This document shows positions 9,110 through 56,597 of a DNA stretch of 64,000 nucleotides, piece after piece. How positions within the stretch are numbered: position 1 is the first letter of the stretch; the number at the start of each line of letters is the position of its first letter. This stretch comes from Eledone cirrhosa (lineage: Eukaryota), in NCBI GenBank assembly GCA_964016885.1, contig OZ024758.1, forward strand, positions 28,272,001 to 28,336,000. Reading direction: 5' to 3'. The notes under the pieces were generated by a model. That model worked only from the letters and a program-made list of their open reading frames with translations. It had not been told where the DNA came from and ran no database searches. A program made the position numbers and the translations under genes.

Positions 9110-9815
9110 TCTAGGGTGGGTAAAATTCCTGAGATCAATCGACGAGTTCTCTCCAGCGGTCTCTGACCCTCATTATCGCTGCCATGTCCTGCATTTCCAA
9201 GAGACCACTGTCTGTCCTTGGGACATCAACATATGTTAACCTCGGTCTTCCTCTTCCAGTGTGTCCATGCAGGGGCTCTCACAAGGGCAGTGAGTGCAGT
9301 GTCAACTCTGGATGTTGGTGAGCATGTGCAGCTAACCTCAGTCTCCTCTGTGTCACTTTTGAGTTGACTTTTGGGATGCTCCCATACAGCTCTTAGTTCT
9401 TCATCCTCAGTGTATACTGATTAATGTTCAGAGCCATCCTCAGCATTCTCATGTAGCACCCATCCACCATCTCAGTGAGTTTCTTGGTAGTGTCCAAGTC
9501 TCAGACCAGTACAGCAGCACAGACTCCACTACAGCAATGAAGAGGCGGATCTTCAGGTCTTTACGAAGGTCCAACTTCCACACCGATCTCAAACTGTGGC
9601 ACACCGTCCAGGCTTTGCTCTTCCTGTCAACCACATCATGTTCCGTGTTCCCAATATTTTCTCCCAAATACAGGAAGTCCTCAACCAATTCTAGTGGCTT
9701 CCCGCCTACATTAGTAATCTTCTCTGGCTTCTTAATATTCTCTACCAGATACTTCATCTTAATCTCATTCATTCTCAGCCCCACACTCATCGACACAGTC
9801 TCCACCTCCTGCATA
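9110..9815 (-). mobile_element. 5'-truncated RTE-like LINE remnant, family C
   Basis: Minus strand encodes VGLRMNEIKMKY..VEDFLYLG..AWTVCHSLRSVWK.DL..LKIRLFIAVVESVLLYWSETWTL, followed by a degenerate C-terminus; a second copy lies at 16366-16727. Confidence 0.88.
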
Positions 9816-17629: not shown

Positions 17630-19861
17630 CATCATCATCATCATCATCATCATCAGGTTTAGCGTCCGTGTTCCACGCTTGCATGGGTTTGGACGGGGGT
17701 TTTCCCACTTGAGGCAAGAGTGGTTGTCTTGCTCGCATAGGACTGTCTGGCGGGTTTTCTACAGTTGGATGCCCTTCCTAACACCAACCACATTTACAGT
17801 GTGGGGCTGGGAGGTTTTTACCGTGTTGCCTACACGGCCACATTACAGCGTGGACTGTCTGGCGGGTTTTCTACAGCTGGATGCCCTTCCTAACACCAAC
17901 CACATTTACAGTGTGGGGCTGGGAGGTTTTTACCGTGTTGCCTACACGGCCACATTTACAGCGTGGACTGTGTGTTTTTTGTCGTGACACCTACACGATC
18001 TCATTTGTTTCGGCCTGGATGTTGTGGGACCAACATAACTTTACATTGAAAGGGGCGGTGTGGAGGGACGGGGGTGTGTTTTGATAGAGGTGCCTACTGA
18101 CTGTAGTAGGTTTTTACTTTGTATTTAGGTAAGGCGGGTCTTCTCTATTACTGAGTACCGCCAAAGGTCTCGGTCCAGTGACATTGTCTTGGAGAGGTGT
18201 AAGCGTGTGAGGTCGGAATTTATCAGCTCGTCCCATGTTTTTCTGGGTCTGCCTACTCCGTGGCTACCGTCTATCTTTATTGCCCTGCACTTTGTTATAC
18301 AGCTGTCGTCTTTCATGCGCATCACGTGACCGTACCAACGTAGCCTTCTCTCGAGTAAACAACATCTGATCCCTCTTATTTCTAATTTTTTCCTTAGTTC
18401 GTTTATGCTTTGCCGTTCACGTATATTACTATTGCACATCCAGCGGAGCATGCAAGCTTCGTTCCTCTCTAGTCTGCGTATATCCTCTGCACACAATGCC
18501 CAGGTCTCACTGCCATGCAGCATTGCTGTTCGTATGCAGGCATCGTATAACCTGCCTTTCATTTTTAGGGAGAACCCTCTAGCGGCTAATAGTGGTATAA
18601 GCTCTCTGAACTTTTTCCATCCAGTTCTGACTCTAGCTACTGTACTTTCAGAGCACCCTCCCCCACTGCTGATTTTGTCACCCAGATAACGGAAGCTGTC
18701 CACTATTTCTATAGAACCCTCTGCGCAGTTGAAGGAGCTAGTATTTTGTGGGCACTTGCTGCTACTTATTGCACCAGAGCACCGGCCACATGTAAAATCT
18801 ATGTTCTTAGTTAGCTTACCTGTGATCCCACTACATCTTTTATGCACCCATACTTTGCATTTGGGACATAAAATGGAGTTTCTACCTACGCCTTTCCTAC
18901 ACACTGAGCATGGCCATTTCCCCGATGGGACCGCCGCCTTATTTTCTTTCCTACAAACTAGAACTTTAGTCTTAGCCAGGTTAATTTTAAGGCCTTTTGA
19001 TTCTAGGCCGTGCTTCCACGTTTGGAATTTCTTCTCTAGTTCGGTCATTGATTCAGCTATGAGCGTTAGATCATCTGCGTATAGGAGTTCCCATGGGCAG
19101 CCGGTCTTGAACTCCTCTGTTATAGCCTGAAGGGCAATAATAAATAGTAGGGGGCTAAGTACAGAGCCCTGATGGACACCAACTTTTACGCTAAACTCTT
19201 CACTATATTCGTTGTTAATTCTAACCTTACTGACTGTTTCTTTATACATGGCTTGTATAGCTCTCACAAGCCATTCGTCAACACCTAGTTTTCTAAGAGA
19301 CCACCAGATAATGGAACGGGGGACTCTGTCGAAGGCTTTCTCCAAGTCGACAAAAGCTAAGTATAGGGGTTTACTTTTAGCTAGGTACTTCTCCTGTAGT
19401 TGTCGTACAATGAAAAGAGCGTCTGTGGTACTTTTACCTGACACAAACCCGAACTGCATTTCATCCAGATCAATTCTCTCTCTGATTAGTTGCGCTATTA
19501 CTTTTTCCGTGACCTTCATGACCTGGTCGATTAATTTAATGCCTCTATAGTTACTCCTATCTAGGGCATCTCCTTTTCCCTTATAGCAGTTAACGATGAT
19601 GCTGCTACGCCATTCCTTCGGAACAACCCCATTCTGTACGACTTGGTTAACTATCCGGGTGACCATGGTGTGTCCCACCGAACCAGATGCCTTCAGCATC
19701 TCAGCAACTATTTCCGAAGGCCCAGCCGCCTTACCCGTCTTCATATCTTTGATTGCCTTACTTATTATACTACCTTCAACTAACACTGCTGGTCCCTCTA
19801 TTGGATCGATCTGGGGGAGACTGTCTTTCTCCCATTTGTTCTCCTCATTTAGAAGCCTTTC
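17630..19861 (-). mobile_element. 5'-truncated RTE family A copy
   Basis: Closely similar to 2296-4410; (cat)n tail at the left end; RT frame open with intact YADD; endonuclease domain absent. Confidence 0.96.
18125..19786 (-). pseudogene. Open RT + PHD finger + C-terminal frame of the truncated RTE copy
   Basis: 553 aa uninterrupted: YRGIKL, QFGF, DLEKAFD, GVHQGSVLSP, LLYADD, FRYLG, MLHGSETW, RLRWYGHV. Confidence 0.9.
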
Positions 19862-22169: not shown

Positions 22170-25100
22170 TGAACATTCCTGATAAAGTCTCTTCACAAGT
22201 CAAAATATTCCATTGCTCCTGGCAACTGCTCCTTACTGAGGTTTGATCATCTGAGAGTTGATCAATGAAGGTTTGAGTAGGTCTTCTTCTCTCATGAGTT
22301 GCTTCTCACAATAGTAACTTGTGTATAACTTCCTGTTTACTTCTCCAGCAATGTCCTGCAAATCATAAACATCTTTGAGGAATTGTACTTACTATATTGG
22401 GCAAGTTTCCGTATAAACATTCATTTATAATATATTGATACCAGTTTATGTTTTGTACAACCTTAAGTAGTTTAGTGTATGCACTATCTAGTTTCTTCTC
22501 AAGAGCTGGTGTCAGGGTCACTGTACCTGACCATACAACAACACTGACTCAAGAGCTGGTGTCAGGGTCTATGTATCTGATCCATACAACACTGACTCAA
22601 GTGTTGCTGTTAGAGACCATGTACCTGATCCATACAACAACACTGACTCAACTGCAGGTGTCAGAGTCCATGTACCTGATCCATACAACAACACTGACTC
22701 AAGTGTTGGTGTCAGGGTCCATGTATCTAATCCATACAACAACACTGACTCAGGAGCTGGTGTCAGGTTCCATGTACCTGAACCATAGAACAACACTGAC
22801 TCAAGTGCTGGTGTCTGGGTCCATGTACTTGATCCATACAACAATTCTGACTCAACTGCTGGTGTCAGGGTCCATGTACCTGATCCATACAACAACACTG
22901 ACTCAAGTGCTTAGTGTCAGGGACCATGGACCTGATCCATACAACAACACTGGCACAAGTGCTGATGTAAGGGTCCCTGTACATGATCCATACAACACTG
23001 ACTGAAGAGCTGGTGTCAGGGTCCATGTACCTGATCCATACAACACTGACTCAACTGCTGGTGTTAGGGACCATGTACCTAATTCATAAAACAATACTGA
23101 TTCAAGGGCTGGTGTCAGGGTCCATGTATCTGATCCATACAACAGCACTGACTCAAGAGCTGGTGTCAGGGTCCATGTACCTGATCCATACAACACTGAC
23201 TCAAGTGCTGGTGTCAGGGACCATGTACCTGATCCATACAACAACACTGACTCAAGAGCTGGTGTCAGGGACCATGTACCTGATCCATACAACAACACTT
23301 ACTCAAGAGCTGGTGTCAGGGTCCCTGTACCTGATCCATACAACAACACTGACTCAAGAGCTGGTGTCAGGGACCATGTACCTGATCCATACAACAACAC
23401 TTACTCAAGAGGTGGTGTCAGGGTCCCTGTACCTGATCCATACAATAACACTGACTCAAGAGCTGGTGTCAGGGACCATGTACCTGATCCATACAACAAC
23501 ACTTACTCAAGAGGTGGTGTCAGGGTCCCTGTACCTGATCCATACAATAACACTGACTCAAGAGCTGGTGTCAGGGACCATGTACCTGATCCATACAACA
23601 ACACTTACTCAAGAGGTGGTGTCAGGGTCCCTGTACCTGATCCATACAACAACACTGACTCAAGAGCTGGTGTCAGGGACCATGTACCTGATCCAGACGA
23701 CAACACTGGCTCAAGAGCTGGTGTCAGGGTCCATGTACCTAATCCATAAAACAACACTGATTCAAGGGCTGGTGTCAGGGTCCATGTACCTGATCCATAC
23801 AACAACACTGACTCAAGTGCTGGTGTCAGGGTCCCTGTACCTGATCCATACAACACTGACTCAAATTCTGGTGTCAGGGTCCATGTACCTAATCCATAAA
23901 ACAACACTGACTCAAGAGCTGGTGTCAGGGTCCATGTACCTGAACCATACAACAACACTGACTCAAGTGCTGCTGTCAGGGTCCATGTACTTGATCCATA
24001 CAACAACACTGACTCAAGTACTGGTGTTAGGGTCCATGTACCTGAACCATACAACAACACTGACTCAAGTGCTGGTGTCAGGGTCCCTGTACCTAATCCA
24101 TAAAACAACACTGACTCAAGAGCTGGTGTCAGGGTCCATGTACCTGAACCATACAACAACACTGACTCAAGTGCTGCTGTCAGGGTCCATGTACTTGATC
24201 CATACAACAACACTGACTCAAGTACTGGTGTTAGGGTCCATGTACCTGAACCATACAACAACACTGACTCAAGAGCTGGTATCAGGGTCCATGTACCTGA
24301 TCCATACAACAACACTGACTCAAGAGCTGGTGTCAGGGTCCATGTACCTGAACCATACAACAACACTGACTCAAGTGCTGCTGTCAGGGTCCATGTACTT
24401 GATCCATACAACAACACTGACTCAAGTACTGGTGTTAGGGTCCATGTACCTGAACCATACAACAACACTGACTCAAGTGCTGGTGTCTGGGTCCATGTAC
24501 TTGATCCATACAACAACACTGACTCAAGAGCTGGTGTCAGGGTCCATGTACCTGATCCATACAACAACACTGACTCAAGTGCTGGTGTCTGGGTCCATGT
24601 ACCTGATCCATACAACAACACTGACTGAAGAGCTGGTGTCAGGGTCCATGTACCTGATCCATACAACAACACTGACTCAAGAGCTGGTGTCAGGGTCCAT
24701 GTACTTGATCCATACAACAACACTGACTGAAGAGCTGGTGTCAGGGTCCATGTACCTGATCCATACAACAACACTGACTCAAGAGCTGGTGTCAGGGTCC
24801 ATGTACTTGATCCATACAACAACACTGACTGAAGAGCTGGTGTCAGGGTCCCTGTGCCTGATCCATACAACACTGACTCAAGAGCTGGTATCAGGGTCCA
24901 TGTACCTGAGCCATACAACAACACTGACTCAAGTGCTGGTGTCTGGGTCCATGTACTTGATCCATACAACAACACTGACTGAAGAGCTGGTGTCAGGGTC
25001 CATGTACCTGATCCATACAACAACACTGACTCAAGAGCTGGTGTCAGGGTCCATGTACTTGATCCATACAACAACACTGACTCAAGAGCTGGTGTCAGGG

Positions 25101-28100
25101 TCCATGTACCTGAACCATACAACAACACTGACTCAAGTGCTGGTGTCAGGGTCCAAGTACCTGATCCATACAACAACACTGACTCAAGTTCAGGTGCCAG
25201 GGACCATGTACCTGAACCATACAACACTGACTCAAGTGCTGGTGTTAGGGTCCCTGTACCTGATCCATACAACAACACTTACTCAAGAGGTGGTGTCAGG
25301 GTCCCTGTACCTGATCCATACAATAACACTGACTCAAGAGCTGGTGTCAGGGACCATGTACCTGAACCATACAACAACACTTACTCAAGAGGTGGTGTCA
25401 GGGTCCCTGTACCTGATTCATACAATAACACTGACTCAAGAGCTGGTGTCAGGGTCCCTGTACCTGATCCATACAACAATACTGACTCAAGTGCTTGTCT
25501 CAGGGTCCATGTACCTGATCCAGACGACAACACTGGCTCAAGTGCTGGTGTCAGGGTCCATGTACCTGATCCATAAAACAACACTGATTCAAGGGCTGGT
25601 GTCAGGGTCCATGTACCTAATCCATAAAACAACACTGATTCAAGGGCTGGTGTCAGGGTCCATGTACCTGAACCATACAACAACACTGACTCAAGTGCTG
25701 GTGTCAGGGTCCCTGTACCTAATCCATAAAACAACACTGACTCAAGAGCTGGTGTCAGGGTCCATGTACCTGAACCATACAACAACACTGACTCAAGTGC
25801 TGCTGTCAGGGTCCATGTACTTGATCCATACAACAACACTGACTCAAGTACTGGTGTTAGGGTCCATGTACCTGAACCATACAACAACACTGACTCAAGA
25901 GCTGGTATCAGGGTCCATGTACCTGATCCATACAACAACACTGACTCAAGAGCTGGTGTCAGGGTCCATGTACCTGATCCATACAACAACACTGACTCAA
26001 GAGCTGGTATCAGGGTCCATGTACTTGATCCATACAACAATACTGACTCAAGAGCTGGTGTCTGGATCCATGTACTTGATCCATACAACAACAGTGTCTC
26101 AAGTGCTGGTGTCAGGGTCCAAGTACCTGATCCATACAACAACACTGACTCAAGTGCTGGTGTCAGGGTCCATGTACTTGATCCATACAACAATACTGAC
26201 TCAAGAGCTGGTGTCTGGATACATGTACTTGATCCATACAACAACAGTGTCTCAAGTGCTGGTGTCAGGGTCCAAGTACCTGATCCATACAACAACACTG
26301 ACTCAAGTGCTGGTGTCAGGGTCCATGTACTTGATCCATACAACAATACTGACTCAAGAGCTGGTGTCTGGATCCATGTACTTGATCCATACAACAACAG
26401 TGTCTCAAGTGCTGGTGTCAGGGTCCAAGTACCTGATCCATACAACAACACTGACTCAAGTGCTGGTGTCAGGGTCCCTGTACCTGATCCATACAACACT
26501 GACTCAAATTCTGGTGTCAGGGTCCATGTACCTAATCCATAAAACAACACTGATTCAAGGGCTGGTGTCAGGGTCCCTGTACCTGATCCATACAACAACA
26601 CTGACTCAAATTCTGGTGTCAGGGTCCATGTACCTAATCCATACAACAACACTGACTCAAGTGCTGGTGTCAGCGACCATGTACTTGATCCATACAACAA
26701 CACTGACTCAAGAGCTGGTGTCAGGGTCCATGTACCTGATCCAGACGACAATACTGGCTCAAGAGTTGGTGTCAAGGGTCCATGTACCTGATCCATACAA
26801 CAATACTGACTCAAGAGCTGGTGTCTGGATCCATGTACTTGATCCATACAACAACACTGACTCAAGAGCTGGTGTCAGGGTCCATGTACCTGATCCAGAC
26901 GACAATACTGGCTCAAGAGCTGGTGTCAGGGTCCCTGTACCTGATCCATACAACAACACTGACTCAAGTGCTGGTCTCAGGGTCCATGTACCTGATCCAT
27001 ACAACAACACTGACTCAAGAGCTGGTGTCAGGGTCCCTGTACCTGATCCATACAACAACACTGACTCAAGAGCTGGTGTCAGGGTCCATGTACCTAATCC
27101 ATAAAACAACACTGACTCAAGTGCTGGTGTCAGGGTCCATGTACCTGAACAATACAACAACACTGACTCAAGAGCTGGTGTCAGGGTCCCTGTACCTGAT
27201 CCATACAACAACACTGACTCAAGTGCTGGTATCAGGGTCCATGTACCTGAACAATACAACAACACTGACTCAAGAGCTGGTGTCAGGGTCCCTGTACCTG
27301 ATCCATACAACAACACTGACTCAAGTGCTGGTATCAGGGTCCATGTACCTGATCCATACAACAACACTGACTCAAGAGCTGGTGTCAGGGTCCCTGTACC
27401 TGATCCATACAACAACACTGACTCAAGTGCTGGTATCAGGGTCCATGTACCTGATCCATACAACAACACTGACTCAAGAGCTGGTGTCAGGGTCCCTGTA
27501 CCTGATCCATACAACAACACTGACTCAAGTGCTGGTGTCAGGGTCCATGTACCTGATCCATACAACAACACTGACTCAAGAGCTGGTGTCAGGGTCCCTG
27601 TACCTGATCCATACAACAACACTGATTCAAGTGCTGGTCTCAGGGTCCCTGTACCTGAACCATACAACAACACTGACTCAAGAGCTGGTGTCAGGGTCCC
27701 TGTACCTGATCCATACAACAACACTGATTCAAGTGCTGGTCTCAGGGTCCCTGTACCTGAACCATACAACAACACTGACTCAAGAGCTGGTGTCAGGGTC
27801 CCTGTACCTGATCCATACAACAACACTGACTCAAGAGCTGGTGTCAGGGTCCCTGTACCTGATCCATACAACAACACTGACTCAAGTGCTGGTATCAGGG
27901 TCCATGTACCTGATCCATACAACAACACTGACTCAAGAGCTGGTGTCAGGGTCCCTGTACCTGATCCATACAACAACACTGACTCAAGTGCTGGTGTCAG
28001 GGTCCATGTACCTGATCCATACAACAACACTGACTCAAGAGCTGGTGTCAGGGTCCCAGTACCTGATCCATACAACAACACTGATTCAAGTGCTGGTCTC

Positions 28101-31100
28101 AGGGTCCCTGTACCTGAACCATACAACAACACTGACTCAAGAGCTGGTGTCAGGGTCCCTGTACCTGATCCATACAACAACACTGATTCAAGTGCTGGTC
28201 TCAGGGTCCCTGTACCTGAACCATACAACAACACTGACTCAAGAGCTGGTGTCAGGGTCCCTGTACCTGATCCATACAACAACACTGACTCAAGAGCTGG
28301 TGTCAGGGTCCCTGTACCCGATCCATACAACAACACTGACTCAAGTGCTGCTGTCAGGGTCCAAGTACCTGATCCATACAACAACACTGACTCAAGTGCT
28401 GGTGTCAGGGTCCCTGTACCTGATCCATACAACAACACTGATTCAAGGGCTGGTGTCAGGGTCCAAGTACCTGATCCATACAACAACACTGACTCAAGTG
28501 CTGGTGTCTGGGTCCATGTACCTGATCCATACAACAACACTGACTCAAGAGCTGGTATCAGGTTCCATGTACCTGATCCATACAACAACACTGACTCAAG
28601 TGCTGGTGTCAGGGTCCCTGTACCTGATCCATACAACAACACTGACTCAAGAGCTGGTATCAGGGTCCATGTACCTGATCCATACAACAACACTGACTCA
28701 AATTCTGGTGTCAGGGTCCCTGTACCTGATCCATACAACAACACTGACTCAAGAGCTGGTGTCAGGGTGCCTGTACCCGATCCATACAACAACACTGACT
28801 CAAGTGCTGGTGTCTGGGTCCATGTACCTGATCCATACAACAACACTGACTCAAATTCTGGTGTCAGGGTCCATGTACCTGATCCATACAACAACACTGA
28901 CTCAAGAGCTGGTGTCAGGGTCCCTGTACCTGATCCATACAACAACACTGATTCAAGTGCTGGTCTCAGGGTCCATGTACCTGATCCATACAACAACACT
29001 GACTCAAGAGCTGGTGTCAGGGTCCCTGTACCTGATCCATACAACAACACTGATTCAAGTGCTGGTCTCAGGGTCCCTGTACCTGATCCATACAACAACA
29101 CTGACTCAAGTGCTGGTGTCAGGGTCCCTGTACCTGATCTATACAACAACACTGATTCAAGTGCTGGTCTCAGGGTCCATGTACCTGATCCATACAACAA
29201 CACTGACTCAAGTGCTGGTGTCTGGGTCCATGTACCTGATCCATACAACAACACTGACTCAAATTCTGGTGTCAGGGTCCCTGTACCTGATCCATACAAC
29301 AACACTGACTCAAGAGCTGGTGTCAGGGTCCATGTACCTGATCCATACAACAACACTGATTCAAGAGCTGGTGTCAGGGTCCATGTACCTGATCCATACA
29401 ACACTGACTCAACTGCTGGTGTCAGGGTCCATGTACCTGATCCATACAACACTGACTCAACTGCTGGTGTCAGGGTCCCTGTACTTGATCCATACAACAA
29501 CACTGATTCAAGGGCTGGTGTCAGGGTCCATGTACCTGAACCATACAACAATACTGACTCAAGAGCTGGTGTCAGGGTCCCTGTACCTGAACCATACAAC
29601 AACACTGACTCAAGTGCCGGTGTTAGGGACCATGTATCTGATCCATACAACAACACTGACTCAAGAGCTGGTGTCAGCGACCATGTACCTGATCCATACA
29701 ACAACACTGACTCAAGAGCTGGTGTCAGGGTCCCTGTACCTGATCCATACAACAACACTGACTCAAGTGCTGGTGTCTGGGTCCATGTACTTGATCCATA
29801 CAACAACACTGACTCAAGAGCTGGTGTCAGGGTCCATGTACCTGAACCATACAACAACACTGACTCAAGAGCTGGTGTCAGGGTCCCTGTGCCTGATCCA
29901 TACAACAACACTGACTCAAGTGCTGGTGTTAGGGTGCCTGTACCCGATCCATACAACAACACTGACTCAAGTGCTGGTGTCAGGGTCCAAGTACCTGATC
30001 CATACAACAACACTGACTCAAGTGCTGGTGTCTGGGTCCATGTACCTGATCCATACAACAACACTGACTCAAGAGCTGGTATCAGGTTCCATGTACCTGA
30101 TCCATACAACAACACTGACTCAAGTGCTGGTGTCAGGGTCCCTGTACCTGATCCATACAACAACACTGACTCAAGAGCTGGTATCAGGGTCCATGTACCT
30201 GATCCATACAACAACACTGACTCAAATTCTGGTGTCAGGGTCCCTGTACCTGATCCATACAACAACACTGACTCAAGAGCTGGTGTCAGGGTCCCTGTAC
30301 CTGATCCATACAACAACACTGATTCAAGTGCTGGTCTCAGGGTCCATGTACCTGATCCATACAACAACACTGACTCAAGTGCTGGTGTCTGGGTCCATGT
30401 ACCTGATCCATACAACAACACTGACTCAAATTCTGGTGTCAGGGTCCATGTACCTGATCCATACAACAACACTGACTCAAGAGCTGGTGTCAGGGTCCCT
30501 GTACCTGATCCATACAACAACACTGATTCAAGTGCTGGTCTCAGGGTCCATGTACCTGATCCATACAACAACACTGACTCAAGAGCTGGTGTCAGGGTCC
30601 CTGTACCTGATCCATACAACAACACTGATTCAAGTGCTGGTCTCAGGGTCCCTGTACCTGATCCATACAACAACACTGACTCAAGTGCTGGTGTCAGGGT
30701 CCCTGTACCTGATCTATACAACAACACTGATTCAAGTGCTGGTCTCAGGGTCCATGTACCTGATCCATACAACAACACTGACTCAAGTGCTGGTGTCTGG
30801 GTCCATGTACCTGATCCATACAACAACACTGACTCAAATTCTGGTGTCAGGGTCCCTGTACCTGATCCATACAACAACACTGACTCAAGAGCTGGTGTCA
30901 GGGTCCATGTACCTGATCCATACAACAACACTGATTCAAGAGCTGGTGTCAGGGTCCATGTACCTGATCCATACAACACTGACTCAACTGCTGGTGTCAG
31001 GGTCCATGTACCTGATCCATACAACACTGACTCAACTGCTGGTGTCAGGGTCCCTGTACTTGATCCATACAACAACACTGATTCAAGGGCTGGTGTCAGG

Positions 31101-31820
31101 GTCCATGTACCTGAACCATACAACAATACTGACTCAAGAGCTGGTGTCAGGGTCCCTGTACCTGAACCATACAACAATACTGACTCAAGTGCCGGTGTTA
31201 GGGACCATGTATCTGATCCATACAACAACACTGACTCAAGAGCTGGTGTCAGCGACCATGTACCTGATCCATACAACAACACTGACTCAAGAGCTGGTGT
31301 CAGGGTCCCTGTACCTGATCCATACAACAACACTGACTCAAGTGCTGGTGTCTGGGTCCATGTACTTGATCCATACAACAACACTGACTCAAGAGCTGGT
31401 GTCAGGGTCCATGTACCTGAACCATACAACAACACTGACTCAAGAGCTGGTGTCAGGGTCCCTGTGCCTGATCCATACAACAACACTGACTCAAGTGCTG
31501 GTGTTAGGGTGCCTGTACCCGATCCATACAACAACACTGACTCAAGTGCTGGTGTCAGGGTCCAAGTACCTGATCCATACAACAACACTGACTCATGTTC
31601 AGGTGCCAGGGTCCAAGTACCTGATCCATACAACAACACTGACTCAAGTGCTGGTGTCAGGTCCATCTACCTGATCCATACAACACTGACTGAAGTGCTG
31701 GTGTTAGGGTCTCTGTATCTGATCCATATAACACTGACTAAACAGATGTTCTGAAGAATGATATGTTAATTTTTTTCTGGGTAGATCTGACTTCTATATT
31801 CTTTCCATTTTATTCATAGT
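22170..31820 (-). mobile_element. Dead RTE-like LINE remnant (family D) expanded internally by the 51 bp array
   Basis: Minus-strand flank before the array: TMNKMERI*KSDLPRK/INISFFRTSV*SVLYGS; flank after it: TLTPALEKKLDSAYTKLLKVVQNINW...LYGNLPNIVSTI.QRCL*FAGHCWRSKQE..HKLLL*E..RRPTQTFIDQL. Confidence 0.9.
22499..31740. repeat. 51 bp tandem repeat, ~180 copies, some 48 bp variants
   Basis: Unit gactcaagagctggtgtcagggtccatgtacctgatccatacaacaacact; the minus strand translates to ALESVLLYGSGTWTLTP. Confidence 0.98.
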
Positions 31821-31824: not shown

Positions 31825-32000
31825 TATCATCAACAACATCAACGCTCTTTTGCATCCATTTTTCCATTCTTGTTTGTGTTAGATGAGTCATCTATGTTGG
31901 GAGACAAACCTGGCCAGAACTGGCCATGCTGCACCTTGCAGTAAATTTGGCCAGGGATTTTACAGCTGGATTCTTTTCCTAACACCAACCACATTTACAA
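31825..32000 (-). mobile_element. Degenerate RTE 3' UTR fragment
   Basis: ttttacagctggattcttttcctaacaccaaccacatttaca matches the RTE 3' UTR motif at 17757-17800. Confidence 0.65.
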
Positions 32001-32120
32001 TTCTAATATCAATGTCATTTTTTGATGAACTCATTCAGTGGCTCAGCTGTAGTATAGTAAATATATCATGATACTGAGCAAATCTGCTTGCTAAAATGTA
32101 TTCCTTTTCAAGTTATACTT

Positions 32121-33443: not shown

Positions 33444-36400
33444 AGGATACTGTATAATGTCTGCAGACAATGTATGATGTTACATGGTAGGGAGACATGG
33501 GCTGTGAATGGAGAGGATACTGTATAATGTCTGCAGACAATGTATGATGTTACATGGTAGGGAGACAAGGGTTGTGAATGGAGAGGATACTGTATGATGT
33601 CTGTAGACAATGTATGATGTTACATGGTAGGGAGACATGGGCTGTGAATGGAGAGGATACTGTATAATGTCTGCAGACAATGTATGATGTTACATGGTAG
33701 GGAGACATGGGCTGTGAATGGAGAGGATACTGTATGATGTCTGTAGACAATGTATGATGTTACATGGTAGGGAGACATGGGCTGTGAATGGAGAGGATAC
33801 TGTATGATGTCTGTAGACAATGTATGATGTTACATGGTAGGGAGACATGGGCTGTGAATGGAGAGGATACTGTATGATGTCTGTAGACAATGTATGATGT
33901 TACATGGTAGGGAGACATGGGCTGTGAATGGAGAGGATACTGTATGATGTCTGCAGACAATGTATGATGTTACATGGTAGGGAGACATGGGCTGTGAATG
34001 GAGAGGATACTGTATAATGTCTGCAGACAATGTATGATGTTACATGGTAGGGAGACATGGGCTGTGAATGGAGAGGATACTGTATAATGTCTGCAGACAA
34101 TGTATGATGTTACATGGTAGGGAGACATGGGCTGTGAATGGAGAGGATACTGTATAATGTCTGCAGACAATGTATGATGTTACATGGTAGGGAGACATGG
34201 GCTGTGAATGGAGAGGATACTGTATAATGTCTGTAGACAATGTATGATGTTATATGGTAGGGAGACATGGGCTGTGAATGGAGAGGATACTGTATAATGT
34301 CTGTAGACAATGTATGATGTTACATGGTAGGGAGACATGGGCTGTGAATGGAGAGGATACTGTATGATGTCTGTAGACAATGTATGATGTTACATGGTAG
34401 GGAGACATGGGCTGTGAATGGAGAGGATACTGTATAATGTCTGTAGACAATGTATGATGTTACATGGTAGGGAGACATGGGCTGTGAATGGAGAGGATAC
34501 TGTATAATGTCTGTAGACAATGTATGATGTTACATGGTAGGGAGACATGGGCTGTGAATGGAGAGGATACTGTATAATGTCTGTAGACAATGTATGATGT
34601 TACATGGTAGGGAGACATGGGCTGTGAATGGAGAGGATACTGTATAATGTCTGCAGACAATGTATGATGTTACATGGTAGGGAGACATGGGCTGTGAATG
34701 GAGAGGATACTGTATAATGTCTGTAGACAATGTATGATGTTACATGGTAGGGAGACATGGGCTGTGAATGGAGAGGATACTGTATGATGTCTGTAGACAA
34801 TGTATGATGTTACATGGTAGGGAGACATGGGCTGTGAATGGAGAGGATACTGTATAATGTCTGTAGACAATGTATGATGTTACATGGTAGGGAGACATGG
34901 GCTGTGAATGGAGAGGATACTGTATGATGTCTGCAGACAATGTATGATGTTACATGGTAGGGAGACATGGGCTGTGAATGGAGAGGATACTGTATAATGT
35001 CTGCAGACCATGTATGATGTTACATGGTAGGGAGACATGGGCTGTGAATGGAGAGGATACTGTATAATGTCTGCAGACCATGTATGATGTTACATGGTAA
35101 GGGAGACATGGGCTGTGAATGGAGAGGATACTGTATAATGTCTGCAGACAATGTATGATGTTACATGGTAGGGAGACAAGGGCTGTGAATGGAGAGGATA
35201 CTGTATAATGTCTGCAGACCATGTATGATGTTACATGGTAGGGAAACATGGGCTGTGAATGGAGAGGATACTGTATGATGTCTGCAGACAATGTATGATG
35301 TTACATGGTAGGGAGACATGGGCTGTGAATGGAGAGGATACTGTATAATGTCTGCAGACAATGTATGATGTTGCATGGTAGGGAGACATGGGCTGTGAAT
35401 GGAGAGGATACTGTATGATGCCTACAGACAATGTATGATGTTACATGGTAGGGAGACATGGGCTGTGAATGGAGAGGATACTGTATGATGTCTGCAGACA
35501 ATGTATGATGTTACATGGTAGGGAGACATGGGCTGTGAATGGAGAGGATACTGTATGATGCCTACAGACAATGTATGATGTTACATGGTAGGGAGACATG
35601 GGCTGTGAATGGAGAGGATACTGTATAATGTCTGTAGACAATGTATGATGTTACATGGTAGGGAGACATGGGCTGTGAATGGAGAGGATACTGTATAATG
35701 TCTGCAGACAATGTATAATGTTATATGGTAGGGAGACATGGGCTGTGAATGGAGAGGATACTGTATAATATCTGTAGACAATGTATGATGTTACATGGTA
35801 GGGAGACATGGGCTGTGAATGGAGAGGATACTGTATAATGTCTGTAGACAATGTATGATGTTACATGGTAGGGAGACATGGGCTGTGAATGGAGAGGATA
35901 CTGTATGATGTCTGCAGACAATGTATGATGTTACATGGTAGGGAGACATGGGCTGTGAATGGAGAGGATACTGTATGATGTCTGCAGACAATGTATGATG
36001 TTACATGGTAGGGAGACATGGGCTGTGAATGGAGAGGATACTGTATGATGTCTGCAGACAATGTATGATGTTACATGGTAGGGAGACATGGGCTGTGAAT
36101 GGAGAGGATACTGTATAATGTCTGCAGACAATGTATGATGTTACATGGTAGGGAGACATGGGCTGTGAATGGAGAGGATACTGTATAATGTCTGTAGACA
36201 ATGTATGATGTTACATGGTAGGGAGACATGGGCTGTGAATGGAGAGGAGACTGTATAATGTCTGTAGACAATGTATGATGTTACATGGTAGGGAGACATG
36301 GGCTGTGAATGGAGAGGAGACTGTATAATGTCTGCAGACAATGTTATATGTTACATGGTAGGGAGACATGGGCTGTGAATGGAGAGGATACTGTATAATG

Positions 36401-39400
36401 TCTGTAGACAATGTTATATGTTACATGGTAGGGAGACATGGGCTGTGAATGGAGAGGATACTGTATAATGTCTGCAGACAATGTATGATGTTACATGGTA
36501 GGGAGACATGGGCTGTGAATGGAGAGGATACTGTATGATGTCTGCAGACAATGTATGATGTTACATGGTAGGGAGACATGGGCTGTGAATGGAGAGGATA
36601 CTGTATAATGTCTGTAGACAATGTATGATGTTACATGGTAGGGAGACATGGGCTGTGAATGGAGAGGATACTGTGTAATGTCTGTAGACAATGTATGATG
36701 TTACATGGTAGGGAGACATGGGCTGTGAATGGAGAGGATACTGTATAATGTCTGTAGACAATGTATGATGTTACATGGTAGGGAGACATGGGCTGTGAAT
36801 GGAGAGGAGACTGTATAATGTCTGCAGACAATGTTATATGTTACATGGTAGGGAGACATGGGCTGTGAATGGAGAGGATACTGTATGATGTCTGCAGACA
36901 ATGTATGATGTTACATGGTAGGGAGACATGGGCTGTGAATGGAGAGGATACTGTATGATGTCTGCAGACAATGTATGATGTTACATGGTAGGGAGACATG
37001 GGCTGTGAATGGAGAGGATACTGTATAATGTCTGCAGACAATGTATGATGTTACATGGTAGGGAGACATGGGCTGTGAATGGAGAGGATACTGTATAATG
37101 TCTGCAGACAATGTATGATGTTACATGGTAGGGAGACATGGGCTGTGAATGGAGAGGATACTGTATGATGTCTGCAGACAATGTATGATGTTACATGGTA
37201 GGGAGACATGGGCTGTGAATGGAGAGGAGACTGTATAATGTCTGCAGACAATGTATGATGTTACATGGTAGGGAGACATGGGCTGTGAATGGAGAGGATA
37301 CTGTATAATGTCTGCAGACAATGTATGATGTTACATGGTAGGGAGACATGGGCTGTGAATGGAGAGGAGACTGTATAATGTCTGCAGACAATTTATGATG
37401 TTACATGGTAGGGAGACATGGGCTGTGAATGGAGAGGATACTGTATAATATCTGCAGACAATGTATGATGTTACATGGTAGGGAGACATGGGCTGTGAAT
37501 GGAGTGGATACTGTATAATGTCTGCAGACAATGTATGATGTTACATGGTAGGGAGACATGGGCTGTGAATGGAGAGGATACTGTATGATGTCTGCAGACA
37601 ATGTATGATGTTACATGGTAGGGAGACATGGGCTGTGAATGGAGAGGATACTGTATAATGTCTGCAGACAATGTATGATGTTATATGGTAGGGAGACATG
37701 GGCTGTGAATGGAGTGGATACTGTATAATGTCTGCAGACAATGTATGATGTTACATGGTAGGGAGACATGGGCTGTGAATGGAGAGGATACTGTATGATG
37801 TCTGCAGACAATGTATGATGTTACATGGTAGGGAGACATGGGCTGTGAATGGAGAGGATACTGTATAATGTCTGCAGACAATGTTATATGTTACATGGTA
37901 GGGAGACATGGGCTGTGAATGGAGAGGATACTGTATAATGTCTGCAGACAATGTATGATGTTACATGGTAGGAGACATGGGCTGTGAATGGAGAGGATTA
38001 CTGTATAATGTCTGCAGACAATGTATGATGTTACATGGTAGGGAGACATGGGCTGTGAATGGAGAGGATACTGTATAATGTCTGCAGACAATGTATGATG
38101 TTACATGGTAGGGAGACATGGGCTGTGAATGGAGAGGATACTGTATAATGTCTGCAGACAATGTTATATGTTACATGGTAGGGAGACATGGGCTGTGAAT
38201 GGAGAGGATACTGTATAATGTCTGCAGACAATGTATGATGTTACATGGTAGGGAGACATGGGCTGTGAATGGAGAGGTTACTGTATAATGTCTGCAGACA
38301 ATGTATATGTTACATGGTAGGGAGACATGGGCTGTGAATGGAGAGGATACTGTATAATGTCTGCAGACAATGTTATATGTTACATGGTAGGGAGACATGG
38401 GCTGTGAATGGAGAGGATACTGTATAATGTCTGCAGACAATGTTATATGTTACATGGTAGGGAGACATGGGCTGTGAATGGAGAGGATACTGTATAATGT
38501 CTGCAGACAATGTTATATGTTACATGGTAGGGAGACATGGGCTGTGAATGGAGAGGATACTGTATAATGTCTGCAGACAATGTTATATGTTACATGGTAG
38601 GGAGACATGGGCTGTGAATGGAGAGGATACTGTATAATGTCTGCAGACAATGTTATATGTTACATGGTAGGGAGACATGGGCTGTGAATGGAGAGGATAC
38701 TGTATAATGTCTGCAGACAATGTATGATGTTACATGGTAGGGAGACATGGGCTGTGAATGGAGAGGATACTGTATAATGTCTGCAGACAATGTATGATGT
38801 TACATGGTAGGGAGACATGGGCTGTGAATGGAGAGGATACTGTATAATGTCTGCAGACAATGTATGATGTTACATGGTAGGGAGACATGGGCTGTGAATG
38901 GAGAGGATACTGTATAATGTCTGCAGACAATGTTATATGTTACATGGTAGGGAGACATGGGCTGTGAATGGAGAGGATACTGTATAATGTCTGCAGACAA
39001 TGTATGATGTTACATGGTAGGGAGACATGGGCTGTGAATGGAGAGGATACTGTATAATGTCTGCAGACAATGTTATATGTTACATGGTAGGGAGACATGG
39101 GCTGTGAATGGAGAGGATACTGTATAATGTCTGCAGACAATGTTATATGTTACATGGTAGGGAGACATGGGCTGTGAATGGAGAGGATACTGTATAATGT
39201 CTGCAGACAATGTATGATGTTACATGGTAGGGAGACATGGGCTGTGAATGGAGAGGATACTGTATAATGTCTGCAGACAATGTATGATGTTACATGGTAG
39301 GGAGACATGGGCTGTGAATGGAGAGGATACTGTATAATGTCTGCAGACAATGTATGATGTTACATGGTAGGGAGACATGGGCTGTGAATGGAGAGGATAC

Positions 39401-42400
39401 TGTATAATGTCTGCAGACAATGTATGATGTTACATGGTAGGGAGACATGGGCTGTGAATGGAGAGGATACTGTATAATGTCTGCAGACAATGTTATATGT
39501 TACATGGTAGGGAGACATGGGCTGTGAATGGAGAGGATACTGTATAATGTCTGCAGACAATGTATGATGTTACATGGTAGGGAGACATGGGCTGTGAATG
39601 GAGAGGATACTGTATAATGTCTGCAGACAATGTTATGATGTTACATGGTAGGGAGACATGGGCTGTGAATGGAGAGGATACTGTATAATGTCTGCAGACA
39701 ATGTTATATGTTACATGGTAGGGAGACATGGGCTGTGAATGGAGAGGATACTGTATAATGTCTGCAGACAATGTATGATGTTACATGGTAGGGAGACATG
39801 GGCTGTGAATGGAGAGGATACTGTATAATGTCTGCAGACAATGTATGATGTTACATGGTAGGGAGACATGGGCTGTGAATGGAGAGGATACTGTATAATG
39901 TCTGCAGACAATGTATGATGTTACATGGTAGGGAGACATGGGCTGTGAATGGAGAGGATACTGTATAATGTCTGCAGACAATGTATGATGTTACATGGTA
40001 GGGAGACATGGGCTGTGAATGGAGAGGATACTGTATAATGTCTGCAGACAATGTATGATGTTACATGGTAGGGAGACATGGGCTGTGAATGGAGAGGATA
40101 CTGTATAATGTCTGCAGACAATGTATGATGTTACATGGTAGGGAGACATGGGCTGTGAATGGAGAGGATACTGTATAATGTCTGCAGACAATGTATGATG
40201 TTACATGGTAGGGAGACATGGGCTGTGAATGGAGAGGATACTGTATAATGTCTGCAGACAATGTATGATGTTACATGGTAGGGAGACATGGGCTGTGAAT
40301 GGAGAGGATACTGTATAATGTCTGCAGACAATGTATGATGTTACATGGTAGGGAGACATGGGCTGTGAATGGAGAGGATACTGTATAATGTCTGCAGACA
40401 ATGTATGATGTTACATGGTAGGGAGACATGGGCTGTGAATGGAGAGGATACTGTATAATGTCTGCAGACAATGTATGATGTTACATGGTAGGGAGACATG
40501 GGCTGTGAATGGAGAGGATACTGTATAATGTCTGCAGACAATGTATGATGTTACATGGTAGGGAGACATGGGCTGTGAATGGAGAGGATACTGTATAATG
40601 TCTGCAGACAATGTATGATGTTACATGGTAGGGAGACATGGGCTGTGAATGGAGAGGATACTGTATAATGTCTGCAGACAATGTATGATGTTACATGGTA
40701 GGGAGACATGGGCTGTGAATGGAGAGGATACTGTATAATGTCTGCAGACAATGTATGATGTTACATGGTAGGGAGACATGGGCTGTGAATGGAGAGGATA
40801 CTGTATAATGTCTGCAGACAATGTATGATGTTACATGGTAGGGAGACATGGGCTGTGAATGGAGAGGATACTGTATAATGTCTGCAGACAATGTATGATG
40901 TTACATGGTAGGGAGACATGGGCTGTGAATGGAGAGGATACTGTATAATGTCTGCAGACAATGTATGATGTTACATGGTAGGGAGACATGGGCTGTGAAT
41001 GGAGAGGATACTGTATAATGTCTGCAGACAATGTATATGTTACATGGTAGGGAGACATGGGCTGTGAATGGAGAGGATACTGTATAATGTCTGCAGACAA
41101 TGTATGATGTTACATGGTAGGGAGACATGGGCTGTGAATGGAGAGGATACTGTATAATGTCTGCAGACAATGTATGATGTTACATGGTAGGGAGACATGG
41201 GCTGTGAATGGAGAGGATACTGTATAATGTCTGCAGACAATGTATGATGTTACATGGTAGGGAGACATGGGCTGTGAATGGAGAGGATACTGTATAATGT
41301 CTGCAGACAATGTATGATGTTACATGGTAGGGAGACATGGGCTGTGAATGGAGAGGATACTGTATAATGTCTGCAGACAATGTATGATGTTACATGGTAG
41401 GGAGACATGGGCTGTGAATGGAGAGGATACTGTATAATGTCTGTAGACAATGTATATGTTACATGGTAGGGAGACATGGGCTGTGAATGGAGAGGATACT
41501 GTATGATGTCTGCAGACAATGTATGATGTTACATGGTAGGGAGACATGGGCTGTGAATGGAGAGGATACTGTATAATGTCTGCAGACAATGTATGATGTT
41601 ACATGGTAGGGAGACATGGGCTGTGAATGGAGAGGATACTGTATAATGTCTGCAGACAATGTATGATGTTACATGGTAGGGAGACATGGGCTGTGAATGG
41701 AGAGGATACTGTATAATGTCTGTAGACAATGTATGATGTTACATGGTAGGGAGACATGGGCTGTGAATGGAGAGGATACTGTATAATGTCTGCAGACAAT
41801 GTTATATGTTACATGGTAGGGAGACATGGGCTGTGAATGGAGAGGATACTGTATAATGTCTGCAGACAATGTATGATGTTACATGGTAGGGAGACATGGG
41901 CTGTGAATGGAGAGGATACTGTATAATGTCTGCAGACAATGTATGATGTTACATGGTAGGGAGACATGGGCTGTGAATGGAGAGGATACTGTATAATGTC
42001 TGCAGACAATGTATGATGTTACATGGTAGGGAGACATGGGCTGTGAATGGAGAGGATACTGTATAATGTCTGTAGACAATGTATGATGTTACATGGTAGG
42101 GAGACATGGGCTGTGAATGGAGAGGATACTGTATAATGTCTGTAGACAATGTATGATGTTACATGGTAGGGAGACATGGGCTGTGAATGGAGAGGATACT
42201 GTATAATGTCTGTAGACAATGTATGATGTTACATGGTAGGGAGACATGGGCTGTGAATGGAGAGGATACTGTATAATGTCTGCAGACAATGTATGATGTT
42301 ACATGGTAGGGAGACATGGGCTGTGAATGGAGAGGATACTGTATAATGTCTGCAGACAATGTATGATGTTACATGGTAGGGAGACATGGGCTGTGAATGG

Positions 42401-45400
42401 AGAGGATACTGTATGATGTCTGCAGACAATGTATGATGTTACATGGTAGGGAGACATGGGCTGTGAATGGAGAGGATACTGTATAATGTCTGCAGACAAT
42501 GTATGATGTTACATGGTAGGGAGACATGGGCTGTGAATGGAGAGGATACTGTATAATGTCTGCAGACAATGTATGATGTTACATGGTAGGGAGACATGGG
42601 CTGTGAATGGAGAGGATACTGTATAATGTCTGCAGACAATGTATGATGTTACATGGTAGGGAGACATGGGCTGTGAATGGAGAGGATACTGTATGATGTC
42701 TGCAGACAATGTATGATGTTACATGGTAGGGAGACATGGGCTGTGAATGGAGAGGATACTGTATAATGTCTGCAGACAATGTATGATGTTACATGGTAGG
42801 GAGACATGGGCTGTGAATGGAGAGGATACTGTATAATGTCTGCAGACAATGTATGATGTTACATGGTAGGGAGACATGGGCTGTGAATGGAGAGGATACT
42901 GTATAATGTCTGCAGACAATGTATGATGTTACATGGTAGGGAGACATGGGCTGTGAATGGAGAGGATACTGTATAATGTCTGCAGACAATGTATGATGTT
43001 ACATGGTAGGGAGACATGGGCTGTGAATGGAGAGGATACTGTATAATGTCTGCAGACAATGTATGATGTTACATGGTAGGGAGACATGGGCTGTGAATGG
43101 AGAGGATACTGTATAATGTCTGCAGACAATGTATGATGTTACATGGTAGGGAGACATGGGCTGTGAATGGAGAGGATACTGTATAATGTCTGAAGACAAT
43201 GTATGATGTTACATGGTAGGGAGACATGGGCTGTGAATGGAGAGGATACTGTATAATGTCTGCAGACAATGTATGATGTTACATGGTAGGGAGACATGGG
43301 CTGTGAATGGAGAGGATACTGTATGATGTCTGCAGACAATGTATGATGTTACATGGTAGGGAGACATGGGCTGTGAATGGAGAGGATACTGTATAATGTC
43401 TGCAGACAATGTATGATGTTACATGGTAGGGAGACATGGGCTGTGAATGGAGAGGATACTGTATAATGTCTGCAGACAATGTATGATGTTACATGGTAGG
43501 GAGACATGGGCTGTGAATGGAGAGGATACTGTATAATGTCTGTAGACAATGTTATGATGTTACATGGTAGGGAGACATGGGCTGTGAATGGAGAGGATAC
43601 TGTATGATGTCTGCAGACAATGTATGATGTTACATGGTAGGGAGACATGGGCTGTGAATGGAGAGGATACTGTATAATGTCTGCAGACAATGTATGATGT
43701 TACATGGTAGGGAGACATGGGCTGTGAATGGAGAGGATACTGTATAATGTCTGCAGACAATGTATGATGTTACATGGTAGGGAGACATGGGCTGTGAATG
43801 GAGAGGATACTGTATAATGTCTGTAGACAATGTTATATGTTACATGGTAGGGAGACATGGGCTGTGAATGGAGAGGATACTGTATGATGTCTGCAGACAA
43901 TGTATGATGTTACATGGTAGGGAGACATGGGCTGTGAATGGAGAGGATACTGTATAATGTCTGCAGACAATGTATGATTTTACATGGTAGGGAGACATGG
44001 GCTGTGAATGGAGAGGATACTGTATAATGTCTGCAGACAATGTATGATGTTACATGGTAGGGAGACATGGGCTGTGAATGGAGAGGATACTGTATAATGT
44101 CTGTAGACAATGTTATATGTTACATGGTAGGGAGACATGGGCTGTGAATGGAGAGGATACTGTATGATGTCTGCAGACAATGTATGATGTTACATGGTAG
44201 GGAGACATGGGCTGTGAATGGAGAGGATACTGTATAATGTCTGCAGACAATGTATGATGTTACATGGTAGGGAGACATGGGCTGTGAATGGAGAGGATAC
44301 TGTATAATGTCTGCAGACAATGTATGATGTTACATGGTAGGGAGACATGGGCTGTGAATGGAGAGGATACTGTATAATGTCTGTAGACAATGTATGATGT
44401 TACATGGTAGGGAGACATGGGCTGTGAATGGAGAGGATACTGTATAATGTCTGCAGACAATGTATGATGTTACATGGTAGGGAGACATGGGCTGTGAATG
44501 GAGAGGATACTGTATAATGTCTGTAGACAATGTTATATGTTACATGGTAGGGAGACATGGGCTGTGAATGGAGAGGATACTGTATGATGTCTGCAGACAA
44601 TGTATGATGTTACATGGTAGGGAGACATGGGCTGTGAATGGAGAGGATACTGTATAATGTCTGCAGACAATGTATGATGTTACATGGTAGGGAGACATGG
44701 GCTGTGAATGGAGAGGATACTGTATAATGTCTGTAGACAATGTATGATGTTACATGGTAGGGAGACATGGGCTGTGAATGGAGAGGAGACTGTATAATGT
44801 CTGTAGACAATGTATGATGTTACATGGTAGGGAGACATGGGCTGTGAATGGAGAGGAGACTGTATAATGTCTGCAGACAATGTTATATGTTACATGGTAG
44901 GGAGACATGGGCTGTGAATGGAGAGGATACTGTATAATGTCTGTAGACAATGTTATATGTTACATGGTAGGGAGACATGGGCTGTGAATGGAGAGGATAC
45001 TGTATAATGTCTGCAGACAATGTATGATGTTACATGGTAGGGAGACATGGGCTGTGAATGGAGAGGATACTGTATGATGTCTGCAGACAATGTATGATGT
45101 TACATGGTAGGGAGACATGGGCTGTGAATGGAGAGGATACTGTATAATGTCTGTAGACAATGTATGATGTTACATGGTAGGGAGACATGGGCTGTGAATG
45201 GAGAGGATACTGTGTAATGTCTGTAGACAATGTATGATGTTACATGGTAGGGAGACATGGGCTGTGAATGGAGAGGATACTGTATAATGTCTGTAGACAA
45301 TGTATGATGTTACATGGTAGGGAGACATGGGCTGTGAATGGAGAGGAGACTGTATAATGTCTGCAGACAATGTTATATGTTACATGGTAGGGAGACATGG

Positions 45401-56500: not shown

Positions 56501-56597
56501 GGTAAAGGGTTAATGATGCAGTCACATTAACTTTGGTTTCACAATAACACTAAGTATGTTTATATAGACATCATATACTGAGTTAGCAAATAATAAT

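What the first reader, a model, noticed from the sequence alone, without database searches (positions are those of the whole stretch)
22170..31820. The 51 bp array is an in-frame 17-codon expansion inside a dead RTE ORF, with both flanks still readable
Seen on the minus strand: ...ERI*KSDLPRK/INISFFRTSV*SVLYGS-[TWTLTPALESVLLYGSG]x~180-TLTPALEKKLDSAYTKLL...LYGNLP...FAGHCWRS. The unit is bounded by a TTGAG microhomology (V-E of VESV and L-E of ALEKK, 51 bp apart). This explains the 995-1635 aa ORFs in three frames. Gene predictors could annotate these as novel repeat proteins.
Basis: seen in the sequence. Interest (0 to 1): 0.78.

Follow-up and report, generated by a model that had tools for sequence, protein, structure and literature searches.

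The report
Minisatellite nursery inside a dead LINE
A 9.2-kb block of 182 head-to-tail copies of a 51-letter piece sits inside a dead jumping-gene copy, and the same piece has multiplied in about a third of that jumping gene's other copies in this genome, likely by repeated copying slips soon after each copy landed; it is not a protein gene.

Summary
Confirmed in the main. The array (22503-31742, 182 units, 51 bp) splits a dead, 5'-truncated RTE-type LINE; with the array removed, the flanks give one collinear hit to single-unit copies (77-78%, E<=4e-91). Corrections: four 1-bp indels and stops break the frame (net frame kept); the window's upstream TTGAG reads TTTAG; the 9449-9814 remnant is another family (32% aa). 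The long ORFs are neutral by-products. New here: the same unit with the same ends is tandem in 11 of 29 copies chosen by 3' flank alone, on many contigs, 2 to 182 units. Array copies form no clade, keep native 5' flanks (against a source RNA with 3+ extra units), and were born early. Best reading: repeated microhomology-mediated duplication at one predisposed site, then ordinary minisatellite growth. One unit variant (position 46) recurs in large unlinked arrays and is unexplained. Known kind: TE-derived minisatellites, SINE-derived satellites of reptiles. The scan noted LINE-born arrays before on other DNA of this genome, not this family.

The parts
31999..32038 (-). 5'-most remnant of the truncated LINE copy
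   Evidence: 83-88% to the matching stretch of L003, L010, L012, L014, L040, L041
31817..31999 (.). 183-bp repeat piece inserted into the LINE's 5' flank; absent from other copies
   Evidence: gap in alignments to other copies; 69% over 180 bp to window 58983-59156 and 85-89% over 45-48 bp to six other window sites
31743..31817 (-). LINE ORF remnant upstream of the array (NKMERI*KSDLPRK / INISFFRTSV), one stop, one frameshift
   Evidence: 81-86% to L040/L041; collinear with residues 638-677 of open-ORF relative L146
31738..31742 (-). upstream microhomology arm, TTTAG here, TTGAG in relatives
22503..31742 (-). 51-bp minisatellite, 182 units, 92 distinct unit types, unit reads ESVLLYGSGTWTLTPAL in the LINE frame; 99% of units carry the position-46 variant; a 31-unit block duplication (824 bp perfect at 1575 bp spacing)
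22498..22502 (-). downstream microhomology arm TTGAG (L-E of ALEKK)
22170..22502 (-). 3' end of the LINE ORF (KKLDSAY..LYGNLP..FAGHCWRS..FIDQLSDD), two TGA stops, a 9-bp deletion, frameshifts; the (GAT)n tail of other copies is decayed here
   Evidence: 81-85% to 39 other copies; 45% aa to L146, E 9e-27, and 46% to P0001, E 3e-28; tails
26759..31666 (-). spurious 1635-aa ORF (ATG start) in the unit's LINE frame
   Evidence: unit variants 40 replacement: 18 silent: 4 stop against 39.9: 17.1: 5.0 expected without selection
22983..31754 (+). spurious antisense ORFs of 1373, 1630 and 995 aa
   Evidence: two antisense frames of the unit hold no stop, no shortage of replacement changes

Best explanation
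The array is a minisatellite inside a dead, 5'-truncated RTE-type LINE copy, and the same 51-bp piece is tandem in about a third of the family's copies, likely because it was duplicated again and again, mostly soon after insertion, by slippage between the two TTGAG repeats that bound it. Shown: host element, unit ends, recurrence, neutrality. Inferred: a first 1x-to-2x duplication at the 5-bp microhomology, possibly helped by an 8-of-9-bp inverted repeat just inside it; fast early growth while units were identical; then either freezing by mutation (arrays of 2-7 old units) or continued block duplication (this array). Some arrays were likely also handed on between neighbouring sibling copies. 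The array encodes nothing.
For: Collinear flanks. 11 arrays and 18 single units among 29 unit-spanning copies of the 39 ranked by 3' flank alone; 10 were truncated, deleted or split there. Second sample by a first-unit pattern: 9 of 37 loci with the 51-bp array, 2 with 64/76-bp arrays over the same stretch, 26 single. Flank tree star-like, arrays one clade in 0 of 200 bootstrap trees; no shared flank changes among array copies once C>T/G>A are set aside, p 0.67. At least 10 of 11 arrays keep the native 5' flank, which a source RNA with 3 or 4 extra units would rarely give (P 0.016, 0.003). First and last units of 24 arrays share 18 changes: 35 expected for uniform birth times (P 0.005), 4.6 for birth at insertion, 14 for birth in the first 30% of the copy's age. 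Single-unit L024 shares two unit changes with all or most units of arrays L043/L045. The TTGAG pair ranks 1st of 86 direct-repeat pairs by folding energy per base and 3rd by end closure. Neutral variant spectrum.
Against: A two-unit source RNA is not excluded (P 0.15-0.40), nor three units under the lower hazard (P 0.088). Sibling copies agree in array status in 9 of 10 groups. Array copies share slightly more flank changes when all changes count (p 0.028) and cluster on the tree (10 changes against 13.6 shuffled, 6 of 500). Variants A46C (7 of 22 independent arrays, 0 of 35 single units) and T6C (12 of 22, 1 of 35) recur more than their class means of 1.0 and 2.2, which independent birth alone does not explain. 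The unit folds no better than shuffles (z -0.59 and +0.73 as DNA; -0.5 as RNA). In the 11-array sample birth at insertion is not rejected (P 0.09). 85 other microhomology pairs are not used at this rate, so microhomology alone is not the cause.
Confidence: 0.6

Rival explanations
1. Inherited repeat: one or a few source elements already carried two or three in-frame units, the array seed was spread by retrotransposition (as for LTR12 or SVA), and only the later growth was local. The 17-codon length would then matter, since it keeps the source's frame.
For: Identical ends at 20-odd loci; early birth; recurrent A46C and T6C on otherwise ancestral units; sibling concordance 9 of 10 groups; weak flank clustering, p 0.028; a doublet template passes the truncation test.
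Against: No clade, no diagnostic flank change (best of 77 column tests p 0.009); 18 shared changes exceed the 4.6 expected for birth at insertion; arrays of 4-5 mutually old units (L049, L003, L030) would need templates that the truncation test rejects; other breakpoints over the same stretch; the motif stands twice in 0 of 95 motif-bearing ORF relatives.
Confidence: 0.17
2. Insertion-coupled slippage: the duplication is made during the insertion itself, by the reverse transcriptase or second-strand synthesis jumping back at TTGAG across the hairpin, independently in each event.
For: Early birth; in the 11-array sample 8 share no change between first and last unit and birth at insertion is not rejected; native 5' flanks kept; no clade; four 5' ends lie within 10 bp upstream of the downstream TTGAG against 1.7 expected (P 0.09).
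Against: Over 24 arrays shared changes exceed this model (18 against 1-9); later births are visible (L069, L152, the C4 trio); the truncation excess is not significant; RNA folding of the unit is no better than shuffles.
Confidence: 0.13
3. Spread by ectopic exchange: arrays arose a few times and were copied into single-unit paralogues by gene conversion, which also moved A46C and T6C between loci.
For: Sibling copies lie 5 kb to a few Mb apart, share element changes but no outside flank and have different 5' ends; A46C also appears in the 64-bp array L048 whose relative L046 lacks it; homogenisation between loci is reported for SINE-derived satellites (PMC10702118, section 19).
Against: Arrays share only those single variants, not whole unit types; most carriers are on different contigs; no direct test was run.
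Confidence: 0.07
4. The array is a functional repeat-protein gene or an assembly artefact.
For: A 1635-aa ORF with an ATG start; an 824-bp perfect internal duplication could be assembly-made.
Against: Neutral variants, stops and frameshifts; no homologous protein found; 92 distinct unit types; a 337-bp short-read contig bridges the 5' junction with 0-1 differences; like arrays at over 20 loci.
Confidence: 0.03

Closest known systems
SINE-derived satellites (sSat) of squamate reptiles, PMC10702118 (abstract, sections 6 and 19 read)
   Same: Tandem repeats of one fixed part of a retroelement at many dispersed loci, few to hundreds of units, parent sequence left at the ends, alternating unit variants, minor variants with other ends.
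   Different: Here the parent is the coding region of a LINE, both flanks are usually kept, a 5-bp microhomology bounds the unit, and single-unit copies allow birth to be dated; host is likely a cephalopod.
TE-derived minisatellites of the human genome, PMC3389668 (passages) and review PMC9659126 (passages)
   Same: Local duplication of a TE part, more often in young elements, hotspots within a family, flanking direct repeats of 5-20 bp in some, LINE ORF2-derived satellites listed in rodents, seal and chicken.
   Different: Frequency: 24-38% of copies at one site here; the review gives 2663 Alu-linked minisatellites, against over a million Alu copies (PMC2785838, search listing). The LTR12 hotspots there are put down to repeats already in the source element, which is only a rival here.
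Microhomology-mediated tandem duplication (Haber and Louis model), PMC13167724 (abstract, introduction and passages)
   Same: Single-copy segment between short direct repeats goes 1x to 2x and may expand; mostly neutral.
   Different: That work finds growth beyond 2x uncommon and does not mention transposable elements or hairpins (0 hits); here one site has done it in parallel in dozens of paralogues and doublets are the minority.
RTE-clade LINEs (RTE-1, SR2, SR3; PMC1291365 abstract and section 8; octopus RTE-2_OV, PMC9115989 passages)
   Same: Relatives have one ~1000-aa ORF with endonuclease and reverse transcriptase, almost no 3' UTR, trimer-repeat tail.
   Different: This family is dead in all copies seen; no tree with named RTE references was built; RTE-2_OV has a zinc finger and a 600-nt 3' UTR, unlike this family.

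Membership tests
RTE-clade LINE | single ~1000-aa ORF with AP endonuclease and reverse transcriptase | tested here: met
   Met by relatives, not by the dead copy: the 3' flank is 45-46% identical to L146 (798-aa open frame, RVT_1 E 5e-30) and P0001 (1012 aa, PF03372/PF14529/PF00078); family copies L040/L041 carry RT motifs upstream.
RTE-clade LINE | very short 3' UTR ending in AT-rich short repeats, no poly(A) | tested here: met
   (GAT)n tails right after the ORF end in most of L002-L015 and in L146; decayed in the window copy.
RTE-clade LINE | no C-terminal zinc knuckle in most members (recalled; 'relatively rare' in PMC9115989) | tested here: met
   0 of 120 database relatives match a knuckle pattern in the last 200 aa.
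RTE-clade LINE | RT-domain phylogeny within the RTE clade | not tested
   No named reference proteins were at hand; database relatives carry no clade names.
RTE-clade LINE | variable 5' truncation, target-site duplications | tested here: inconclusive
   5' ends spread from +62 to beyond -1400 in 49 copies; target-site duplications were not sought.
TE-derived multi-locus minisatellite (sSat-like) | unit is a fixed part of a retroelement, arrays at many loci with parent sequence at the ends | tested here: met
   27 array loci, 22 independent, on over 10 contigs, plus L152 and L156.
TE-derived multi-locus minisatellite (sSat-like) | subtelomeric preference; length polymorphism between individuals | not tested
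   Chromosome position was not analysed; only one assembly is held.
Microhomology-mediated tandem duplication | short direct repeat at both ends of the single-copy parent, array ends in register with it | tested here: met
   TTGAG at both ends in 14 exact single-unit matches; array ends in register.
Microhomology-mediated tandem duplication | arises de novo in DNA at the locus (1x and 2x alleles seen) | tested here: inconclusive
   Indirect only; no allele data.
Source-borne VNTR (SVA, LTR12 type) | repeat present in the transposing RNA: array copies form a subfamily, 5' truncations fall inside arrays | tested here: not met
   Not met for 3 or more extra units (P 0.016 or less) and no subfamily; a doublet source stays open.
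Repeat-protein gene | purifying selection on the reading frame; homologous proteins | tested here: not met
   Neutral counts; no hit at E<=0.001; only a below-cutoff DUF7437 match, 22.9 bits against 27.

The most novel reading that the evidence does not exclude
This LINE family seeds minisatellites as part of, or right after, its own insertion: slippage across a hairpin-bounded 5-bp repeat gave a third of all copies a tandem seed, and one base change (unit position 46) then acts as an expansion driver that arose or spread between unlinked arrays and marks the longest ones. The family would be a natural replicate experiment, dozens to hundreds of loci of one age and one starting sequence, for minisatellite birth and for selection among repeat units.
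Probability: 0.2. Interest if true: 0.62.

Novelty: new member of a known kind. Interest (0 to 1): 0.36.

Why it matters
How minisatellites are born is hard to study because the single-copy start is usually lost. Here the start (single-unit copies), doublets, short frozen arrays and arrays of 73, 87 and 182 units stand side by side in one genome, all from one burst about 9-10% diverged from its centre. That makes birth rate, timing and the effect of unit variants measurable. In practice it also warns that kilobase ORFs of 17-residue repeats in this genome are LINE debris.

Tried and rejected
(1) A hotspot tied to the YGSETW motif in all RTE families: the window's 70-bp array does derive from that motif of the PHD-bearing LINE family, and a search with it found arrays of 40, 47 and 66 bp there, but 0 of 24 motif-spanning copies among 29 picked by 3' flank had one (p 0.0005 against 11 of 29); the subfamily sampled may not be the exact parent. 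(2) CCAG/CTGG-creating changes favoured: held-out sites 14 against 10.1, P 0.14. (3) Hairpin-weakening changes favoured: held-out stem sites 79 against 110 expected, majority-level 5 against 4.2. (4) Reverse-transcriptase stop at the unit: 4 against 1.7, P 0.09. (5) LINE origin of the 43-, 72-, 28- and 42-bp arrays: no blastx hit to 62 LINE proteins. (6) Pfam on the 3' flank: no family. (7) No RNA holder listed. (8) Read laying over the 3' flank was swamped by neighbouring SINE-like repeats; contig depth is no measure of array length. (9) One line counted stops in the wrong frame and was discarded; one search replaces it. (10) No earlier scan note matched the sequence. In the tree 14 of 62 loci with under 250 bp of 3' flank were left out, L046 was labelled single though it holds a 76-bp array, and the bootstrap had not settled; no AU test was run.

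Full report
What is there. TRF finds a 51-bp array of 181.9 copies at 22498-31733. Cut in register it holds 182 units over 22503-31742, 9240 bp; most are 51 bp, 13 are 48 bp (one TTG lost), and four 1-bp indels shift the phase and cancel out. On the minus strand the unit reads ESVLLYGSGTWTLTPAL. Upstream lie ERI*KSDLPRK and INISFFRTSV*, downstream EKKLDSAYTKLL..LYGNLP..FAGHCWRS. With the array removed in a script the two flanks align as one piece to single-unit copies L040 and L041 (78% over 414 nt, 77% over 478 nt), which themselves share 1.7 kb reaching into reverse-transcriptase motifs. The 3' flank is 45-46% identical to an open-frame relative in the genome (L146, RVT_1) and to ~1000-aa endonuclease plus RT proteins. 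With the (GAT)n tails of other copies this fits the RTE clade as described in PMC1291365 (section 8); no tree with named references was made. The host is likely an octopus; that rests on earlier scan notes and recall of its SINE-like repeats and was not tested.

The ORFs. ORFs of 995, 1373, 1630 and 1635 aa lie in the array. Only the 1635-aa one is in the LINE frame; two antisense frames of the unit happen to hold no stop. The 62 distinct unit variants fall 40 replacement, 18 silent, 4 stop in the LINE frame against 39.9, 17.1, 5.0 expected from the flank mutation spectrum. A straight read through the array meets 103 stops. No homologous protein was found among 7997 candidates of 135-431 aa. 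The remnant at 9449-9814 is a related but separate family (32% aa, no DNA match).

The array recurs. A search with the 3' flank alone gave 896 candidates, 40 scored. I fetched all 39 non-self copies. Ten are truncated, deleted or split at the unit; of the 29 that span it, 11 are arrays (3 to 87 units) and 18 single. A pattern that fixes only the first unit gave 37 loci: 9 with the 51-bp array, 2 with 64/76-bp arrays over the same stretch, 26 single. Strict junction patterns gave 14 single and 10 array matches, controls 0. Elsewhere in the 350-bp 3' flank of the same 39 copies TRF found 4 tandem duplications, all with different periods. So this site is a hotspot. It is family-specific: 0 of 24 copies of the PHD-bearing LINE family had an array at the homologous motif, although the window's own 70-bp array comes from that motif.

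Inherited or born many times. A tree of 48 flanks is a star; arrays are one clade in 0 of 200 bootstrap trees, with 10 label changes against 13.6 shuffled (6 of 500 as low), the clustering coming largely from sibling pairs (caveats under Tried and rejected). Array copies share slightly more flank changes than random sets (p 0.028) but not when C>T and G>A are set aside (p 0.67). LINE copies here end 5' at about 0.004-0.006 per base, so a source RNA with extra units should leave many arrays without a native 5' flank; at most 1 of 11 lacks it. This rejects 3 or 4 extra units (P 0.016, 0.003), is borderline for 2 (0.009-0.088) and allows 1 (0.15-0.40). First and last units of 24 arrays share 18 changes; simulation gives 4.6 (1-9) for birth at insertion, 14 (8-21) for birth in the first 30% of the copy's age and 35 (24-47) for uniform birth. 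The model ignores gene conversion. Small arrays such as L049 have five units 5-9 changes apart, as far as unlinked single units (mean 7.1): they grew early and froze. Later births exist too: single-unit L024 shares two unit changes with arrays L043 and L045. Against pure independence: sibling copies, which share element changes but no outside flank and differ in 5' end, agree in array status in 9 of 10 groups.

Why this site. TTGAG bounds the unit in the parent, but 86 direct-repeat pairs of 5 bp or more exist in the last 551 bases. The TTGAG pair ranks first by folding energy per base and third by pairing of its two ends, owing to an 8-of-9-bp inverted repeat just inside it. Against this, the unit folds no better than its shuffles, so the hairpin's role is inferred and weak.

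An unexplained variant. A46C is present in 7 of 22 independent arrays (majority in 5) and 0 of 35 single units, class mean 1.0 (corrected P 0.011); none of 17 further single-unit stretches shows it; all 3 first-unit matches with it are arrays (p 0.037 against 11 of 37); its share rises with array size (rho 0.55, p 0.003, loci not independent). The window's array is 99% A46C. T6C is in 12 of 22 arrays and 1 of 35 singles, plus single L154. Carriers share no flank signal. Two motif explanations failed on held-out sites. Exchange between arrays, a two-unit source carrying the variant, or a growth advantage remain.

Is the assembly real. A 337-bp short-read contig spans 31632-31968 with 0-1 differences in three runs of one sample, which may be the source sample. 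The length is unconfirmed; an 824-bp perfect block at 31-unit spacing is either a recent duplication or an assembly effect, but 92 unit types argue for a long array.

Comparison. Retroelement-derived multi-locus tandem repeats are known: SINE-derived satellites of reptiles (PMC10702118, abstract and sections 6, 19), human TE-derived minisatellites with hotspots and a bias to young elements (PMC3389668, passages), LINE ORF2-derived satellites (PMC9659126, passages), and microhomology-mediated duplication (PMC13167724, abstract and passages). Six full-text searches (listings only) and passages of an Octopus repeat annotation (PMC13282606) showed no report of this family or of LINE-ORF minisatellites in cephalopods; most subscription journals are not covered. 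An earlier scan note describes LINE-born arrays on another piece of this genome and pointed to the reptile paper.

Verdict. It is a new member of a known kind, without function, whose value is the replicated series from one unit to 182 and the unusually high rate at one site. Interest 0.36.

Noticed in passing
window 33444-52211: 70-bp array, 268 copies; the unit matches the RLYDACIRTAMLHGSETWA stretch of the PHD-bearing LINE family (E 4e-6 and 5e-7), with a short LINE 3' remnant and a CT microsatellite instead of a 5' flank. Related arrays elsewhere have periods 40, 47 and 66.
   Followed up: partly
window 53653-56501: A PHD-bearing LINE copy (54200-55700, minus) sits between two blocks of the same 72-bp array (53653-53922 and 55693-56501), as if inserted into it.
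   Followed up: no
window 691-3627 (+), 18125-19861 (-), 54203-55699 (-): Three copies of a LINE family with a PHD/C1-like finger right behind the RT domain; long open frames of 978, 578 and 499 aa.
   Followed up: partly
window 5411-8954 and 62795-64000: 43-bp (82.6 copies) and 28-bp (43+ copies) arrays, each near a LINE tail; no LINE protein match.
   Followed up: partly
L010/L150, L031/L068, L049/L072, L036/L077, L015/L052, L026/L063, L018/L066, L024/L043/L045: Sibling LINE copies lie 5 kb to a few Mb apart on one contig, share changes within the element only and have different 5' ends: local re-insertion from a nearby source or gene conversion.
   Followed up: partly
L046 (C10:29.43 Mb) and L048 (C10:41.40 Mb): 76-bp and 64-bp arrays over the same stretch with a shared novel junction but no shared outside flank.
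   Followed up: partly
L009, L010, L051, L021, L024 (3' flanks): Other tandem duplications in the same family near the tail, periods 190, 125, 122, 55 and about 33 bp.
   Followed up: no
L146 (G000:C1:358.53 Mb) and about 60 matches at 46-51% identity: A younger sister family with open frames up to 798 aa, possibly still able to move.
   Followed up: partly
family flanks, 37 copies: C>T and G>A changes run at 13-14% per site, five times A>G and T>C.
   Followed up: no
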